A stretch of DNA of 22,881 nucleotides, taken from the IMG/VR virus record IMGVR_UViG_2734482777_000003; one strand, 5' to 3'. Both the position numbers and the translations under genes were made by a program. Source of the DNA: a virus. Lineage: Duplodnaviria > Heunggongvirae > Uroviricota > Caudoviricetes. Below, in pieces: positions 2,678 through 19,328 of this stretch. Every line of letters begins with the position of its first letter. The stretch's first letter is position 1. A model generated the notes under the pieces. That model was not told the origin of the DNA. It was given only the letters and a program-made list of their open reading frames with translations, and did not search any database.

Positions 2678-3376
2678 TTACTGCGAAAGTTTGTTAATGG
2701 AAAGGAAGCCGCCAAAGTTGCCGACGTTATTGCGAAACTTACAGCCGCTCAGGCATTTACTGCATTTATCCTTCGTGATATCGGACGTCGGCTGGTCATA
2801 TTCATCCGCGACTGCCGGACCGTGATAACCGCACTCATCACCGCGATAGGTCCAGGTGCAGGTGTTGGCCAGCATGATGCGCCCCGGAAAAACAGCGCCA
2901 TCCGTTTCCGTCGGTGTGGACAGCACAAAAGAGGCACTGACCGCGCTCAGTTCGCTGCACTGTTCGATGCGCCAGCGGCTGATCACCTCCTGCTCCGGAT
3001 CGGCGTCACTGTTTCCGTTGACGAAGTTCACCGCATCCAGAAAACGGGCGTAAACCTTACGCCGGACCACCGTTCCGCCGACCAGACTCTGCAGATCTTC
3101 CGCCATCCCGGTGACCATGCCGTACAGATTAGAGACTTTCAGCGTTGGCCTTGCACTGGCTCCTTTGCCGTTCATCTCAAATCCGCTTCCCTGAATGGGA
3201 TAGGCCTGATACTGCCGCCCCTGCCAGGTGACTGGTTCACCTTTTTCGTTCTGCTCATTACAGAAGAAATAACGATCTCCGCCGACCTCTGTCAGATCAA
3301 TTTCCCAGAGCACGACCAGCGCGGATTGCTCCGTTTTAGTGCACTCATTGAGTGTTTCCTGCTGTATATCCTGCAT
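2678..3376 (-). CDS. L: Tail tip assembly protein L
   Basis: 232 aa ORF, the same length as lambda gpL, with a C-terminal cysteine cluster (DKCSKCLSGCKF). Its ATG overlaps the M stop by one base (TGATG). Confidence 0.85.
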   Translation of the reverse strand: MQDIQQETLNECTKTEQSALVVLWEIDLTEVGGDRYFFCNEQNEKGEPVTWQGRQYQAYPIQGSGFEMNGKGASARPTLKVSNLYGMVTGMAEDLQSLVGGTVVRRKVYARFLDAVNFVNGNSDADPEQEVISRWRIEQCSELSAVSASFVLSTPTETDGAVFPGRIMLANTCTWTYRGDECGYHGPAVADEYDQPTSDITKDKCSKCLSGCKFRNNVGNFGGFLSINKLSQ

Positions 3377-16189: not shown

Positions 16190-16657
16190 CTACTTAATGC
16201 ACTGAGTGCGGATATATTCCTGCGCCCCTTCCAGTTGCATCTGCATCGTCATCAATCGGTCTCTGAGGGTGAAATAATCCCGTTCAGCGGTGTCTGCCAG
16301 TCGGGGGATGGTTGCATTATCCACGCTGGTGGGTCCGGTGGCTTCACGCACGGCTGCGGAGCAACTGGCATTGACCCGCAGGCGCTTACGGCCAGCGGCA
16401 ACATCAGCGCGCAGAGTTTCATTTTCAGCTTTCGCATTGGCTAATTCTCTCGAGTACTTTGCATCGAGCGCAGCAACATCACGCTGACGCTGCTGCATGT
16501 CAGCGATGGTGGCGATCGCCTGCTTCAGCTCACTGACTTTTTTATCACGTTGTTCTTTGTAGGCGATGGCGTTATCACGGTAATGATTGACCGCCCACGA
16601 CAGGCAGACGATAGTGCAGATAACCAGAGCATAAATAATCGCGGCGACTCTGCTCAC
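16190..16657 (-). CDS. Rz: Rz inner-membrane spanin (i-spanin)
   Basis: Start placed at a GTG overlapping the endolysin stop (the track uses a TTG at 16672). N-terminal TM segment, then coiled coil; recognised as lambda Rz-like. Confidence 0.85.
16252..16437 (-). CDS. Rz1: Rz1 outer-membrane lipoprotein spanin (o-spanin), embedded in Rz in the +1 frame
   Basis: 61 aa [61 protein letters not shown]: lipobox plus Pro-rich mature part, entirely inside Rz as in lambda. Confidence 0.8.
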
Positions 16658-17187
16658 TGATCTATTCCCCAACAGGCTAATGCGCTTTCCTGGTCACGAC
16701 GAATAACCTGACCGTAACAGTTATTTGAACGAATGCGGCAATCACGGCCACCGTCCTTAATCCACCAGCGAATCGCCTCGCATGCACCTTTACGATCACC
16801 AGCATTCAGCCGCTTATAAAACGTCGACGGAAAACACTTACCGGGGCCAATGTTATAGGGACAAAATGACGCGATACCCGCTTTTTGTGGCTCGGTCAGT
16901 GGTACTTTAATATTGCGCTCCACCCATGCCAGCGCCTTATCACGCTCAATGGCGTTGACCTGGTCGCATTTTTCCTTCGACAGTTTCATACCGGGAAAAA
17001 CGGGTTTTCCATCCACCATCGTGGCACCCCGACAGATGGTCCAGATGCCGGACCCATCGCGGTATGCCGTTGTGTGGTTACCTTCTTTTTCATCCAGAAA
17101 CTGGTCGAGAATATCAGGCGCGGGCGCACCGACGGCAATCAGTGCCAGAACGGCAGCCGACAGGCCGTATCTGATTTTTGCGTTCAT
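16654..17187 (-). CDS. rrrD: SAR endolysin (T4-lysozyme-like, glycoside hydrolase family 24)
   Basis: 177 aa. N-terminal weakly hydrophobic Gly/Ala-rich segment ([17 protein letters not shown]) followed by the E-x8-D-x5-T catalytic triad ([16 protein letters not shown]). Recognised as the E. coli cryptic-prophage RrrD/RrrQ lysozyme family. Confidence 0.85.
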
Positions 17188-17250
17188 GGATATTTATCAG
17201 GATTTATCGGTTTCTGCCCACGGACAGGTTTATCTGTTCCGGTCAGTGAC

Positions 17251-17601
17251 TTAAGGTTGTGATTCCGGAGGAGTCTTCAGAGAACCAGTAATTCTTCCTA
17301 GTAGCTTTCCTTTGTAGGTTATCCACACATTCTGCGCATCTAAAATTACGGGGCGCTTTTCCGGCGACTGCTCATCCCCTTCACATAACCCGGCAGCAAC
17401 ATCCAGGAAGACCTGTCTGATGCTCCTTCTGGCTGCTGCCTCATAAAACTCCAGCGCGGCACCTTCAACACGGTCCAGCGAGATGTCCAGGGCAAAAATT
17501 TCACCGTCAAAGCGTTTTTTGTCCCGTAACGCTAAAGTTACCGTAACTTTATTCTCAAAATTGCGGATCCCTTTCACAATCAGTTCATAGTTTTGAGTCA
17601 T
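17251..17601 (-). CDS. Hypothetical protein inside the lysis cassette between holin and endolysin (YdfR-like by synteny)
   Basis: 116 aa soluble protein with ATG and GGAG upstream, 5 nt after the holin stop. The same position is occupied by ydfR in the E. coli Qin prophage. Confidence 0.5.
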   Translation of the reverse strand: MTQNYELIVKGIRNFENKVTVTLALRDKKRFDGEIFALDISLDRVEGAALEFYEAAARRSIRQVFLDVAAGLCEGDEQSPEKRPVILDAQNVWITYKGKLLGRITGSLKTPPESQP

Positions 17602-17605
17602 TGAA

Positions 17606-17821
17606 TTACTCTCCCCGTGCAGCCTTACGCTTGTCTTCTCTGATTTTGAAGTACAGATTTGTCAGATAAGTCAGGAAGCCCAGAACCAGACTCCCCAGTA
17701 CACCAATCGCAGCCCACTGTGAAGGACTGACCTGATCAAGCCACTGTAAAAACCAGTAGCCAGCACTGCCTGCGGAGGTGCCGTAGGCAATGCCCGTTGA
17801 AATTTTGTCCATGGATTTCAT
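17606..17821 (-). CDS. S: Class II pinholin, phage-21 S21-like, with dual-start motif
   Basis: 71 aa [71 protein letters not shown], recognised as S21. Two TM segments; Met1 and Met4 starts; strong GGAGGTGAGG SD. Confidence 0.85.
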
Positions 17822-17880: not shown

Positions 17881-17905
17881 GAAAAGAAAAACCCGCAAAA
17901 GCGGG
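17881..17905 (-). terminator. Intrinsic terminator between the tRNA array and the holin gene
   Basis: Minus strand GCCCGC-UUUU-GCGGG followed by UUUUUCUUUUC. Confidence 0.5.
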
Positions 17906-17981
17906 CGAAACGATATATACAGAAAGGAAAGCACTCTATCCAACAAACCAACCACAGTTAATCGGAATAAAAGCAGAGTGC

Positions 17982-18347: not shown

Positions 18348-18423
18348 TGGTGGCCCTTGCTGGATTTGAACCAGCGACCTGGCGATTATGAGTCGCTCGC
18401 TCTCACCACTGAGCTAAAGGGCC
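18348..18423 (-). tRNA. tRNA with CAU anticodon, most like tRNA-Ile2 (ileX/ileZ-like; Met cannot be excluded)
   Basis: Reverse complement reads GGCCCTTTAGCTCAGTGGTGAGAGCGAGCGACTCATAATCGCCAGGTCGCTGGTTCAAATCCAGCAAGGGCCACCA. Anticodon loop CUCAUAA; strong resemblance to E. coli ileX. Confidence 0.75.
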
Positions 18424-18540
18424 GGGCGCAGGATAATAACGTTACGAAATCAATGTTGCAAGCATTCAAAAATCACCTGGTTAAAAATCACCCTTACCTC
18501 CTCCACCAGCGCATTCACCATGTCTATCCGAGATAAGTGG

Positions 18541-18574
18541 CACAAAAAACCCGCTTGTGGGCGGGTTTTGTTTG
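18541..18574 (-). terminator. Intrinsic terminator, tR'-like (short late transcript)
   Basis: Plus strand AAAAAACCCGCTTGTGGGCGGGTTTTGTTTG: 6 bp GC stem (ACCCGC/GCGGGT), 6 nt loop, flanked by an A-run and a T-run. Sits about 50-70 nt downstream of the candidate promoter. Confidence 0.5.
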
Positions 18575-18599
18575 CTTTTGCCATCACGTACAAAATCGG

Positions 18600-18650
18600 C
18601 AAAATATCAGATTTGCATGAAATATATGCCTTTCAATCTACTTTTGCAAC
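18600..18650 (-). promoter_or_regulatory. Candidate late promoter (pR'-like) with a -10-like element in the initial transcribed region
   Basis: Minus strand has -35 TTGCAA (about 18644-18649), a 17 nt spacer and -10 TATATT (about 18621-18626), overlapping the end of the Q ORF. A GATATT element lies about 10-15 nt further downstream, as expected for a sigma70-dependent pause used by Q. Confidence 0.35.
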
Positions 18651-19328
18651 ACTTTGCTTTGAAAATGCCGCCTTTTGTTTTGAACGTGTTCTCATTACAA
18701 ACAATAAAGCCTCACTATCAAGTCGGTGAAAAATGTGTTTCATTGCAACCCAGTGACGAGTAAATGTTTTGGACCAGTTTTTAGTTGTCACTCCCGCCAG
18801 TAATGCCAGCTCCTGGTATTCATAACCTTCCCCACCAAAAAGTTCTGCTTTTACTGCCTGCGCCGCCAGCCAGATTAATTTTTTCAGGCGTTCCTGCGTT
18901 TTCCCTGCAATTTTTCTGGTACCGGATTGAGTATTAAATTCATTCCACGCCCACTGTGTTATCGCGATCTGATATTCCCAACAAATACTCCCGCTGTAAC
19001 ACCACAACAACCAGGCTTTATGATGTTCTTCAAGAGACAGAACTGCCCGTCGCCATGATGATGTCGAAAACTCAACCTGACTTACCAGAGCAATTGATGA
19101 GCCTTTCGCCAGTGATTGTTTTCCCGGTATCGGTGGACTATCCCGCGTTATCATTCTTCCAGTCACTTCATCGCGGTACCGGATTTTTTTACGCCTGTAA
19201 CGCCCTGTATCAAACATGGCATTCTCCTGCCAGGCTTCAAGCTGACCTTTTGTTGCCCCACTCAAATCAGCGGTAGCGATAATGAGCTGCTCACGCACAA
19301 ACTGTAAATACTGGTTATTCATGCGCAC
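18633..19328 (-). CDS. Putative late-gene antiterminator Q (QuuQ-like)
   Basis: 231 aa ORF directly downstream of rusA and directly upstream of a promoter/short-terminator pair, the tRNA array and the lysis cassette. Assignment is by synteny; I did not recognise a family by sequence. Confidence 0.5.
   Translation of the reverse strand: MRMNNQYLQFVREQLIIATADLSGATKGQLEAWQENAMFDTGRYRRKKIRYRDEVTGRMITRDSPPIPGKQSLAKGSSIALVSQVEFSTSSWRRAVLSLEEHHKAWLLWCYSGSICWEYQIAITQWAWNEFNTQSGTRKIAGKTQERLKKLIWLAAQAVKAELFGGEGYEYQELALLAGVTTKNWSKTFTRHWVAMKHIFHRLDSEALLFVMRTRSKQKAAFSKQSVAKVD

What the first reader, a model, noticed from the sequence alone, without database searches (positions are those of the whole stretch)
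18541..18650. Candidate Q-utilisation region: late promoter, pause-type -10-like element, and short-transcript terminator
Immediately 3' of the Q-like ORF the minus strand carries TTGCAA-17nt-TATATT, then a GATATT -10-like repeat in the initial transcribed region, then a clean GC hairpin with U-run about 50-70 nt downstream. This matches the lambdoid pR'-qut-tR' layout in which Q loads onto RNA polymerase at a sigma-dependent pause and reads through terminators to express tRNAs, lysis, head and tail genes.
Basis: partly seen in the sequence, partly recalled or inferred. Interest (0 to 1): 0.5.

Follow-up and report, generated by a model that had tools for sequence, protein, structure and literature searches.

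The report
Phage-82-type late promoter, pause site, terminator

Summary

**Upstream gene.** The ORF upstream is a Q82-family antiterminator (Pfam PF06323, E = 8e-90). It is 78% identical to phage 82 Q.

**The cassette, on the minus strand:**
- Promoter TTGCAA (18649-18644), 17 nt, TATATT (18626-18621). It overlaps the last Q codons.
- Predicted start at A18614.
- Positions +1 to +17 (AAATCTGATATTTTGCC) are identical to those downstream of a Q gene 100% identical to phage 82 Q.
- These bases match what is published for 82 pR': an AAA start, an extended -10-like pause element, GCC at +15-17 and a pause at +25/26.
The homologous element is TG-n-TATTTT (18609-18601).
- A GC hairpin and U-run (18569-18544) would give a 71-nt RNA.

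**Comparative support.** The promoter-to-pause core is nearly invariant next to Q82-family genes that are only 43-78% identical in protein. The terminator is replaced by several unrelated hairpins at the same distance.

**Related known RNA.** The short RNA is a divergent relative of Salmonella IsrJ: 24.5 bits against an Rfam threshold of 37.

**Downstream genes.** They are tRNAs with their own promoter-like site, a second terminator, lysis genes, and head and tail genes.

**Verdict.** This is a new member of a known kind and of low interest. No transcription or Q-dependent read-through was measured.

The parts
18633..19322 (-). Q antiterminator gene, Q82 family (229 aa from ATG 19322; stop TGA 18635-18633)
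   Evidence: Pfam PF06323, E = 8e-90, covering 217 of 220 profile positions. It is 78% identical to phage 82 Q (X92588) and 66% to Gifsy-1 AntQ. The start was chosen by alignment with Q82. ATG 19322 overlaps the RusA stop codon as ATGA.
18644..18649 (-). pR' -35 hexamer TTGCAA, inside the last Q codons
   Evidence: Read and listed by the scan. Each position is at least 90% conserved over 85 unique relatives.
18621..18626 (-). pR' -10 hexamer TATATT, 17 nt after the -35
   Evidence: It is identical in the locus whose Q is 100% identical to Q82 (L251).
18614..18614 (-). Predicted transcription start (+1, first A of AAA)
   Evidence: It is the 7th base after the -10. PMC5001585 states that wild-type 82 pR' starts with AAA and places GCC at +15-17. 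Only this A gives that numbering. This is an inference; the start was not mapped here.
18598..18609 (-). Sigma-dependent pause element: TG (+6,+7), n, TATTTT (+9 to +14), GCC (+15 to +17)
   Evidence: Identical to L251 and to L004 (phage PhiR47_2), both of phage 82 type. It matches the published description of the 82 pause element.
18589..18590 (-). Predicted pause positions +25 (T) and +26 (A)
   Evidence: Assigned by homology with 82 pR', which pauses at +25/+26 and favours U at the paused RNA end (PMC5001585). Inferred.
18607..18644 (-). Interval -31 to +8 that should hold the Q-binding element (not delimited)
   Evidence: In phage 82 the segment -31 to +30 carries the Q-binding element and the pause element (PMC4914094). 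Against L251 the window matches 25 of 31 bases at -31 to -1 and 17 of 17 at +1 to +17 (counted). The block -13 to +11 is nearly invariant, while the spacer -29 to -14 varies.
18576..18604 (-). Possible first hairpin of the short RNA (UUUUGCC / GGCAAAA, +11 to +39)
   Evidence: Present in the minimum-energy fold, with z = -1.6 on its own. Most relatives have an equivalent stem with other arm sequences, but the 434 type lacks it. A complementarity test gave p from 0.006 to 0.97. Inconclusive.
18544..18569 (-). tR'-type intrinsic terminator: stem 18569-18546 (GC core 18566-18561 / 18554-18549), U-run 18549-18544
   Evidence: Among 232 related loci, 211 have a hairpin plus T-run ending 51-79 nt from +1, in at least four unrelated sequence types.
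18544..18614 (-). Predicted 71-nt short transcript from pR' to tR', a divergent IsrJ relative
   Evidence: Full-length Rfam matches to isrJ (24.5 bits, threshold 37) and isrK (22.7 bits, threshold 50). The isrJ consensus begins uguAaauCUGAUAuC. Intermediate relatives score 30-73 bits.
18433..18461 (-). Second promoter-like site, TTGCAA-17-TATTAT, just upstream of the tRNA block
   Evidence: It is identical, together with the tRNA, to the ileZ upstream region of Stx2a phage F349.
18114..18423 (-). Four tRNA genes (CAT/ileZ-type, Lys-TTT, Thr-TGT, Gly-TCC)
   Evidence: ARAGORN and the Rfam tRNA family.
17885..17909 (-). Second intrinsic-terminator-like site between the tRNAs and the holin gene
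   Evidence: Terminator scan and the sequence read.
16190..17821 (-). Lysis cassette: phage 21-type holin, DUF1327, lysozyme, Rz
   Evidence: Pfam PF04971, PF07041, PF00959 and PF03245.

Best explanation
This is the late-gene regulatory cassette of an E. coli lambdoid prophage, of the phage 82 type.

Proposed mechanism:
1. Host sigma-70 RNA polymerase initiates at A18614 from TTGCAA-17-TATATT.
2. After about 21 nt, sigma region 2 re-binds the non-template TG-n-TATTTT at +6 to +14.
3. The complex scrunches and pauses at +25/+26 (18590/18589).
4. Without Q it resumes and terminates at the hairpin and U-run at 18569-18544. This releases a 71-nt RNA, which should be made constitutively in lysogens.
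5. After induction, the Q82-family protein encoded immediately upstream binds its DNA site within about -31 to +8. It joins the paused polymerase with NusA.
6. The modified polymerase reads through this terminator and the next one at 17909-17885. It then reaches the lysis, head and tail genes.

Shown here: the sequence elements, their orthology to phage 82-type loci, their tight association with Q82-family genes, and the downstream gene content.

Inferred from phage 82 biochemistry: the start site, the pause, Q loading and read-through.
For: **The protein.** Q is PF06323, E = 8e-90, and 78% identical to phage 82 Q. PF06323 is the Q82 family (PMC9388147).

**Orthology to phage 82.**
- L251 encodes a Q 100% identical to Q82. 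It carries TTGCAA-17-TATATT-TCATAT-AAATCTGATATTTTGCC.
- The window is identical at the -35, the -10, the spacing and +1 to +17.
- The published 82 pR' description fits base for base (PMC5001585): AAA start, extended -10-like element, GCC at +15-17, AT-rich +18 to +25, pause at +25/26.

**Selective conservation.** Against an Enterobacter phage, the Q coding sequence is 67% identical in nucleotides. The segment -36 to -1 is 86% identical, and +18 to +45 is only 36%.

**Association with Q82 genes.** A DNA-pattern scan for the -10 plus +1 to +11 returned 80 sampled loci.
- 71 have a Q82-family ORF upstream on the same strand.
- 67 of these are adjacent.
- Their Q proteins are 43-100% identical to the window's.

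**Terminator.** Its position is conserved but its sequence is not.

**Chance.** The composite pattern occurs in 0 of 100 shuffles.

**Experimental precedent.** Gifsy-1 IsrJ carries the same promoter and 5' end. It was detected as a 74-nt RNA (PMC2330248).

**Late genes.** They follow on the same strand.

**Prevalence.** The region occurs in 1326 of 5426 complete E. coli genomes.
Against: - There are no transcript data for this locus. The start, the pause and the termination are all inferred.
- The Q-binding element of phage 82 was not available as sequence in the papers held, so it could not be compared directly.
- The window differs from the phage 82-type locus at 6 of 31 positions in -31 to -1, and at +18, +21, +29 and +30.
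- The window's Q is only 78% identical to Q82, so specificity could differ.
- The generic terminator scan did not list the hairpin on the minus strand.
- The Rfam isrJ match is below threshold.
- The prophage could be defective outside the window.
Confidence: 0.92

Rival explanations
1. The unit is primarily a stand-alone small-RNA gene, like IsrJ or StxS. On this view its promoter and terminator exist to make a trans-acting regulatory RNA, and Q loading is incidental or lost.
For: - Salmonella IsrJ has the same promoter and 5' end. It was described as an sRNA that affects invasion (PMC2330248).
- StxS shows that short RNAs ended at tR' can be Hfq-binding regulators (PMC7547250).
- In Gifsy-1 the unit lies 0.9 kb away from Q.
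Against: - The conserved part is the DNA core from -35 to +17, which is the part needed for pausing and Q loading. The body of the RNA, which would carry a seed, diverges quickly and is replaced between lineages.
- The unit sits directly downstream of a Q82-family gene in 67 of 71 cases and upstream of late genes.
- A regulatory role could be additional rather than alternative.
Confidence: 0.05
2. The hairpin is simply the terminator of the early operon that ends with Q. The promoter-like hexamers and the -10-like repeat are chance matches in AT-rich intergenic DNA.
For: Promoter-like matches are common: 6 in 2 kb against 2.6 expected. The hairpin also scores as a terminator on the plus strand.
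Against: - The composite pattern occurs in 0 of 100 shuffles.
- Positions +1 to +17 are identical to the phage 82-type site.
- The non-coding core is far more conserved than the Q coding sequence.
- The pattern is associated with Q82 genes in 71 of 80 sampled loci.
Confidence: 0.01
3. The cassette is an intact-looking relic. The sequence is orthologous to 82 pR', but Q or its binding site has drifted so that antitermination no longer works in this prophage.
For: The window's Q differs from Q82 at 22% of residues. There are 6 substitutions in -31 to -1. Many E. coli prophages are defective.
Against: - The Q ORF is full length and matches the whole Pfam profile.
- The same window-type site recurs, nearly unchanged, in dozens of viral contigs and hundreds of genomes.
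- Most spacer substitutions are codon changes at the Q C-terminus (AKVD against AKLD).
- The late operon has intact terminase, portal, capsid and tape-measure genes.
Confidence: 0.03

Closest known systems
Phage 82 late promoter pR', its qut site (Q-binding element plus sigma-dependent pause at +25/26) and tR'
   Same: - Q family PF06323, with 78% protein identity.
- -35 TTGCAA, a 17-nt spacer and -10 TATATT.
- The promoter overlaps the end of Q.
- +1 to +17 are identical (AAATCTGATATTTTGCC), and +25 is T.
- An intrinsic terminator follows within 80 nt (PMC5001585, PMC4914094).
   Different: - 6 substitutions in -31 to -1, four of them within the last Q codons and the stop codon, plus changes at +18, +21, +29 and +30.
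- An unrelated, shorter terminator hairpin.
- An RNA of 71 nt against about 78 nt.
- A tRNA block and a phage 21-type holin downstream.
Salmonella Gifsy-1 IsrJ (Rfam RF01393)
   Same: The promoter is TTGCAA-17-TATATT and the 5' end is AAATCTGATAT. The layout is a 5' tail, a stem and a terminator, and the size is about 74 nt. Its relatives lie directly downstream of Q82-family genes.
   Different: - The window scores 24.5 bits against a threshold of 37.
- The bases after +11 and both stems differ.
- In Gifsy-1 an inserted module of about 0.9 kb (isrK-orf45-anrP) separates the unit from antQ.
Lambda pR'-qut-tR' and 6S RNA
   Same: The logic is the same: a constitutive promoter next to Q, a sigma-dependent promoter-proximal pause, Q loading, a terminator and a short RNA in lysogens.
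   Different: The Q family is unrelated (PF03589). The pause element is at +1 to +6, the pause is at +16/17, and the RNA is 194 nt (PMC5001585, PMC9388147).
StxS, the short RNA from pR' to tR' of Shiga-toxin phages
   Same: It is a short RNA made by constitutive termination downstream of the late promoter. The same ileZ-type tRNA module lies downstream (PMC7547250).
   Different: The Q type and the sequence differ. The 258-nt primary transcript is processed to 74 nt. Hfq binding and targets are shown for StxS and untested here.

Membership tests
Lambdoid Q-dependent late cassette, phage 82 type | A Q82-family antiterminator gene (PF06323) immediately upstream | tested here: met
   E = 8e-90; 78% identical to phage 82 Q.
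Lambdoid Q-dependent late cassette, phage 82 type | A sigma-70 promoter at the 3' end of Q, oriented toward the late genes | tested here: met
   TTGCAA-17-TATATT, identical to the hexamers and spacing of the phage 82-type locus L251. Promoter activity itself was not measured.
Lambdoid Q-dependent late cassette, phage 82 type | A -10-like pause element in the initial transcribed region, with extended TG and GCC at +15-17 | tested here: met
   TGATATTTTGCC at +6 to +17 is identical to L251 and L004. It matches the description in PMC5001585.
Lambdoid Q-dependent late cassette, phage 82 type | A sigma-dependent pause at +25/+26 | not testable with these tools
   This needs in vitro transcription. 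Position +25 is T, as in phage 82.
Lambdoid Q-dependent late cassette, phage 82 type | A Q-binding element upstream of the pause element | tested here: inconclusive
The window matches L251 at 51 of 61 positions of that interval (counted).
Lambdoid Q-dependent late cassette, phage 82 type | An intrinsic terminator shortly downstream of the promoter | tested here: met
   A hairpin and U-run at +46 to +71. The position is conserved in 211 of 232 relatives. Termination itself was not measured.
Lambdoid Q-dependent late cassette, phage 82 type | Lysis and morphogenesis genes downstream on the same strand | tested here: met
   Holin, lysozyme, Rz, terminase, portal, protease, capsid and tape-measure genes.
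Lambdoid Q-dependent late cassette, phage 82 type | Q-dependent read-through of the terminator | not testable with these tools
   This needs a reporter fusion or in vitro transcription, with and without the protein.
Rfam isrJ (RF01393) | A score at or above the gathering threshold of 37 bits | tested here: not met
   24.5 bits over the full model length. Relatives score 30 to 100 bits along a continuum.
Rfam isrJ (RF01393) | The 5' consensus AaauCUGAUAu, and a location downstream of a Q82-type gene | tested here: met
   Alignment; genomic context.
Rfam isrK (RF01394) | A score at or above the gathering threshold of 50 bits | tested here: not met
   22.7 bits. The match rests mainly on the terminator and on length.

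The most novel reading that the evidence does not exclude
The 71-nt transcript from pR' to tR' may be more than a by-product. On this reading it is a divergent member of the IsrJ family, carried by roughly a quarter of complete E. coli genomes, and acts in trans as a regulatory RNA in lysogens, as StxS and IsrJ are reported to do. The weakly supported first hairpin would be part of its structure. A related point follows: the nearly invariant block -13 to +11 would mark the still unmapped binding site of the structurally unsolved Q82 family.
Probability: 0.2. Interest if true: 0.45.

Novelty: new member of a known kind. Interest (0 to 1): 0.17.

Why it matters
For this window the result is a sound annotation. 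It fixes where late transcription starts, where polymerase should pause and where it stops in the lysogen. It also shows that two terminators separate the promoter from the lysis genes.

More broadly, the comparison shows three things:
- The phage 82-type promoter and pause core is almost invariant across Q proteins down to about 43% identity.
- The terminator is freely exchanged between lineages.
- The Salmonella sRNA IsrJ is the short late-promoter transcript of such a cassette.

That gives a ready-made natural alignment for anyone mapping the Q82 binding site or solving a Q82 loading complex. None of this changes current understanding.

Tried and rejected
- **Published 82 pR' sequence.** I searched the paper library for it as text, and looked in the supplements of two papers. 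Nothing was held. The comparison therefore rests on a contig whose Q is 100% identical to Q82, plus the verbal description in PMC5001585.
- **Solved structures.** No homologue of the Q protein was found.
- **Genome-contig scan.** It returned only 4 close loci.
- **RNAalifold on 70 unique short RNAs.** It gave almost no consensus structure. The terminators are non-homologous, and the arms of the first hairpin are out of register between clades.
- **First hairpin.** It was tested by z-scores and by arm-complementarity shuffles, with mixed results, so I do not claim it.
- **44-aa ORF 18584-18450.** It is annotated as a hypothetical protein in ON470580. I rejected it because relatives have a stop after 3 codons or a frameshift from T-run length changes.
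- **isrK homology.** Rejected: 22.7 bits against a threshold of 50, and the 5' part is unrelated.
- **CII-activated antisense promoter (paQ-like) at 18644-18657.** I considered it, but found no acceptable -10 at the expected distance.

Full report
**What is in the sequence**

On the minus strand the region reads:
- -35 hexamer TTGCAA at 18649-18644.
- Spacer AAGTAGATTGAAAGGCA, 17 nt.
- -10 hexamer TATATT at 18626-18621, then TCATGC.
- AAATCTGATATTTTGCCGATTTTGTACGTGATGGCAAAAGCAAAC.
- AAAACCCGC-CCACAA-GCGGGTTTTTT, ending at 18544.

The stop codon of the upstream ORF (TGA, 18635-18633) lies inside the spacer, so the promoter overlaps the end of the gene. The generic scan lists the promoter-like site at 9 of 12 matches. 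It also finds 6 such sites in 2 kb against 2.6 +/- 1.4 in shuffles, so that match alone proves nothing. The same scan reported the hairpin only on the plus strand, because its stem extension swallows the T-run on the minus strand. RNAfold of the 71-nt RNA gives a 9-bp terminal stem followed by U residues, with z = -2.8. The composite pattern from -35 to +17 occurs once in the window and in none of 100 shuffles.

**The neighbouring gene**

ORF 18633-19328 matches Pfam PF06323 over the whole profile, E = 8e-90. PMC9388147 names PF06323 as the Q82 family. It is one of three unrelated Q families and has no solved structure (no PDB relative). The protein is 78% identical to phage 82 Q and 66% identical to Gifsy-1 AntQ. 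Alignment with Q82 puts the start at ATG 19322, overlapping the RusA stop codon.

Upstream are RusA and a DUF968/YdfU protein. Downstream on the same strand are:
- four tRNAs;
- a phage 21-type holin, DUF1327, lysozyme and Rz;
- small and large terminase, portal, protease, capsid, tail tube and tape measure.

The window is therefore the late half of a lambdoid prophage with HK97-like morphogenesis genes.

**Orthology with phage 82 pR'**

The deposited phage 82 record ends at the Q stop codon. I therefore used contig L251, whose Q is 100% identical to Q82. Downstream it reads TTGCAA-AACTGGATTAAAAAGCA-TATATT-TCATAT-AAATCTGATATTTTGCCAATGTTGTAC.... The window has the same hexamers, the same spacing and identical bases from +1 to +17.

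PMC5001585 gives these features for 82 pR':
- Wild-type 82 pR' starts with AAA.
- Its -10-like element is closer to consensus than lambda's and has an extended -10.
- The discriminator is GCC at +15-17.
- +18 to +25 is AT-rich.
- Sigma engages at a transcript length of 21, and the pause is at +25/+26.
- U is the favoured 3' end.

All of this fits only if +1 is A18614. The pause hexamer is then TATTTT (+9 to +14, 18606-18601), preceded by TG at +6/+7. GCC is at 18600-18598 and +25 is T18590.

**Comparative evidence**

Protein-anchored scans gave about 320 loci with Q82-family genes.

Among 85 unique sequences spanning -45 to +55, nearly every position from -35 to +11 is at least 90% conserved, and conservation collapses after about +17. 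The anchoring regex constrains +1 to +10 somewhat.

Identity of the window to an Enterobacter phage, by segment:

| Segment | Identity |
|---|---|
| Q coding sequence | 67% |
| -36 to -1 | 86% |
| +1 to +11 | 11 of 11 |
| +18 to +45 | 36% |

The reverse test scanned viral contigs for TATATT-N6-AAATCTGATAT. Of 80 sampled loci:
- 71 have a Q82-family ORF upstream on the same strand.
- 67 of these are adjacent, and 4 have an insert of about 1 kb.
- The other 9 are AT-rich chance hits.

The associated Q proteins range from 43 to 100% identity to the window's. In these more distant relatives the spacer -29 to -14 varies. That spacer also encodes the Q C-terminus (AKLD*, AKPN*, AEMN*, AKVD*). The block -13 to +11 stays almost fixed.

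PMC4914094 places the phage 82 Q-binding element within -31 to +30. I could not delimit it further.

**The terminator and the short RNA**

Of 232 anchored relatives, 211 have a hairpin plus T-run ending 51-79 nt from +1. At least four unrelated hairpin sequences occur. Position is conserved and sequence is not, as expected for a required terminator.

Rfam gives full-length but sub-threshold matches at 18545-18617 to isrJ (24.5 bits, threshold 37) and at 18544-18616 to isrK (22.7 bits, threshold 50). The isrJ consensus starts uguAaauCUGAUAuC.

Rfam isrJ scores of relatives:

| Sequence | isrJ score (bits) |
|---|---|
| Gifsy-1 isrJ | 100 |
| Enterobacter/Klebsiella-type sequences | 44-73 |
| Phage 82-type sequence | 30 |

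In Gifsy-1 the 82-type promoter sits directly upstream of isrJ, about 0.9 kb from antQ, and the isrK-orf45-anrP module lies between them. IsrJ was detected experimentally as a 74-nt RNA (PMC2330248). This is indirect evidence that promoters of this type fire and that the transcripts end at the terminator.

PMC7547250 states that PR' is constitutive and that short terminated RNAs are known for lambda, 21, phi80, 82 and P22.

A first hairpin (+11 to +39) appears in most lineages with different arm sequences. Its statistics are mixed and the 434 type lacks it, so I leave it open.

**Downstream of tR'**

A second promoter-like site, TTGCAA-17-TATTAT at 18461-18433, ends 3-4 nt before the first tRNA. 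That tRNA and its upstream element are identical to ileZ of an Stx2a phage that has a different Q type. The tRNA block therefore looks like an exchangeable unit that may be expressed without Q.

A second terminator-like site at 17909-17885 precedes the holin gene. Late transcripts must pass both terminators.

**Verdict**

The element is an orthologue of a biochemically characterised site and occurs in 1326 of 5426 complete E. coli genomes. It is a new member of a known kind. Start site, pause, Q binding and read-through remain inferred.

Noticed in passing
window 18433-18461 (-), and tRNA 18348-18423: A second promoter-like site, TTGCAA-17-TATTAT, with a GC-rich stretch ends 3-4 nt before the first tRNA. 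The tRNA (called Met-CAT by ARAGORN) and this upstream element are 100% identical to ileZ and its upstream region in Stx2a phage F349, which has a different Q type. The tRNA block looks like a mobile, possibly Q-independent unit.
   Followed up: partly
window 17885-17909 (-): An intrinsic-terminator-like hairpin (GCCCGC/GCGGGT) with a T-run lies between the tRNA block and the holin gene. It would be a second barrier for late transcripts.
   Followed up: no
window 17982-17997/18039-18054 and 18062-18072/18097-18107: Two perfect inverted repeats (16-nt arms with a 41-nt loop; 11-nt arms with a 24-nt loop) lie between tRNA-Gly and the second terminator. No Rfam family matches there.
   Followed up: no
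window 18644-18657 (+): TTGC-N6-TTGC, the CII-box consensus, lies on the strand opposite to Q and overlaps the pR' -35. The phage 434 record annotates the homologous site as a CII site and the paQ -35. I saw no acceptable -10 at the expected distance in the window.
   Followed up: partly
L003 (Gifsy-1) 2198-2396 and 3010-3121: In Gifsy-1 the 82-type late promoter sits at isrJ, about 0.9 kb downstream of antQ. The intervening isrK-orf45-anrP region also hits Rfam c4-a1b1 (48 bits) and C4 antisense RNA (69 bits), so it looks like a P1-type c4/antirepressor module inserted between Q and its promoter. No paper in the searchable library calls IsrJ a late-promoter short transcript.
   Followed up: partly
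window 18450-18584 (-): A 44-aa ORF running through the terminator is annotated as a hypothetical protein in phage record ON470580. Relatives have a stop after 3 codons or a frameshift from T-run length variation, so it is probably not a gene.
   Followed up: yes
window 18576-18604 (-): A possible first hairpin of the short RNA has a 5' arm that overlaps the pause element and the GCC. Relatives keep a stem there with different arm sequences (UUUUGCC/GGCAAAA, GUCGCC/GGUCGAC, UGUCA/UGACA). Shuffle tests are mixed and 434-type loci lack it.
   Followed up: partly
L141, L148, L158 (Enterobacter-type loci), just after the Q stop: In a few relatives an ORF starts immediately after a truncated Q C-terminus, where the promoter would be. 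This suggests insertions at the same junction as in Gifsy-1.
   Followed up: no
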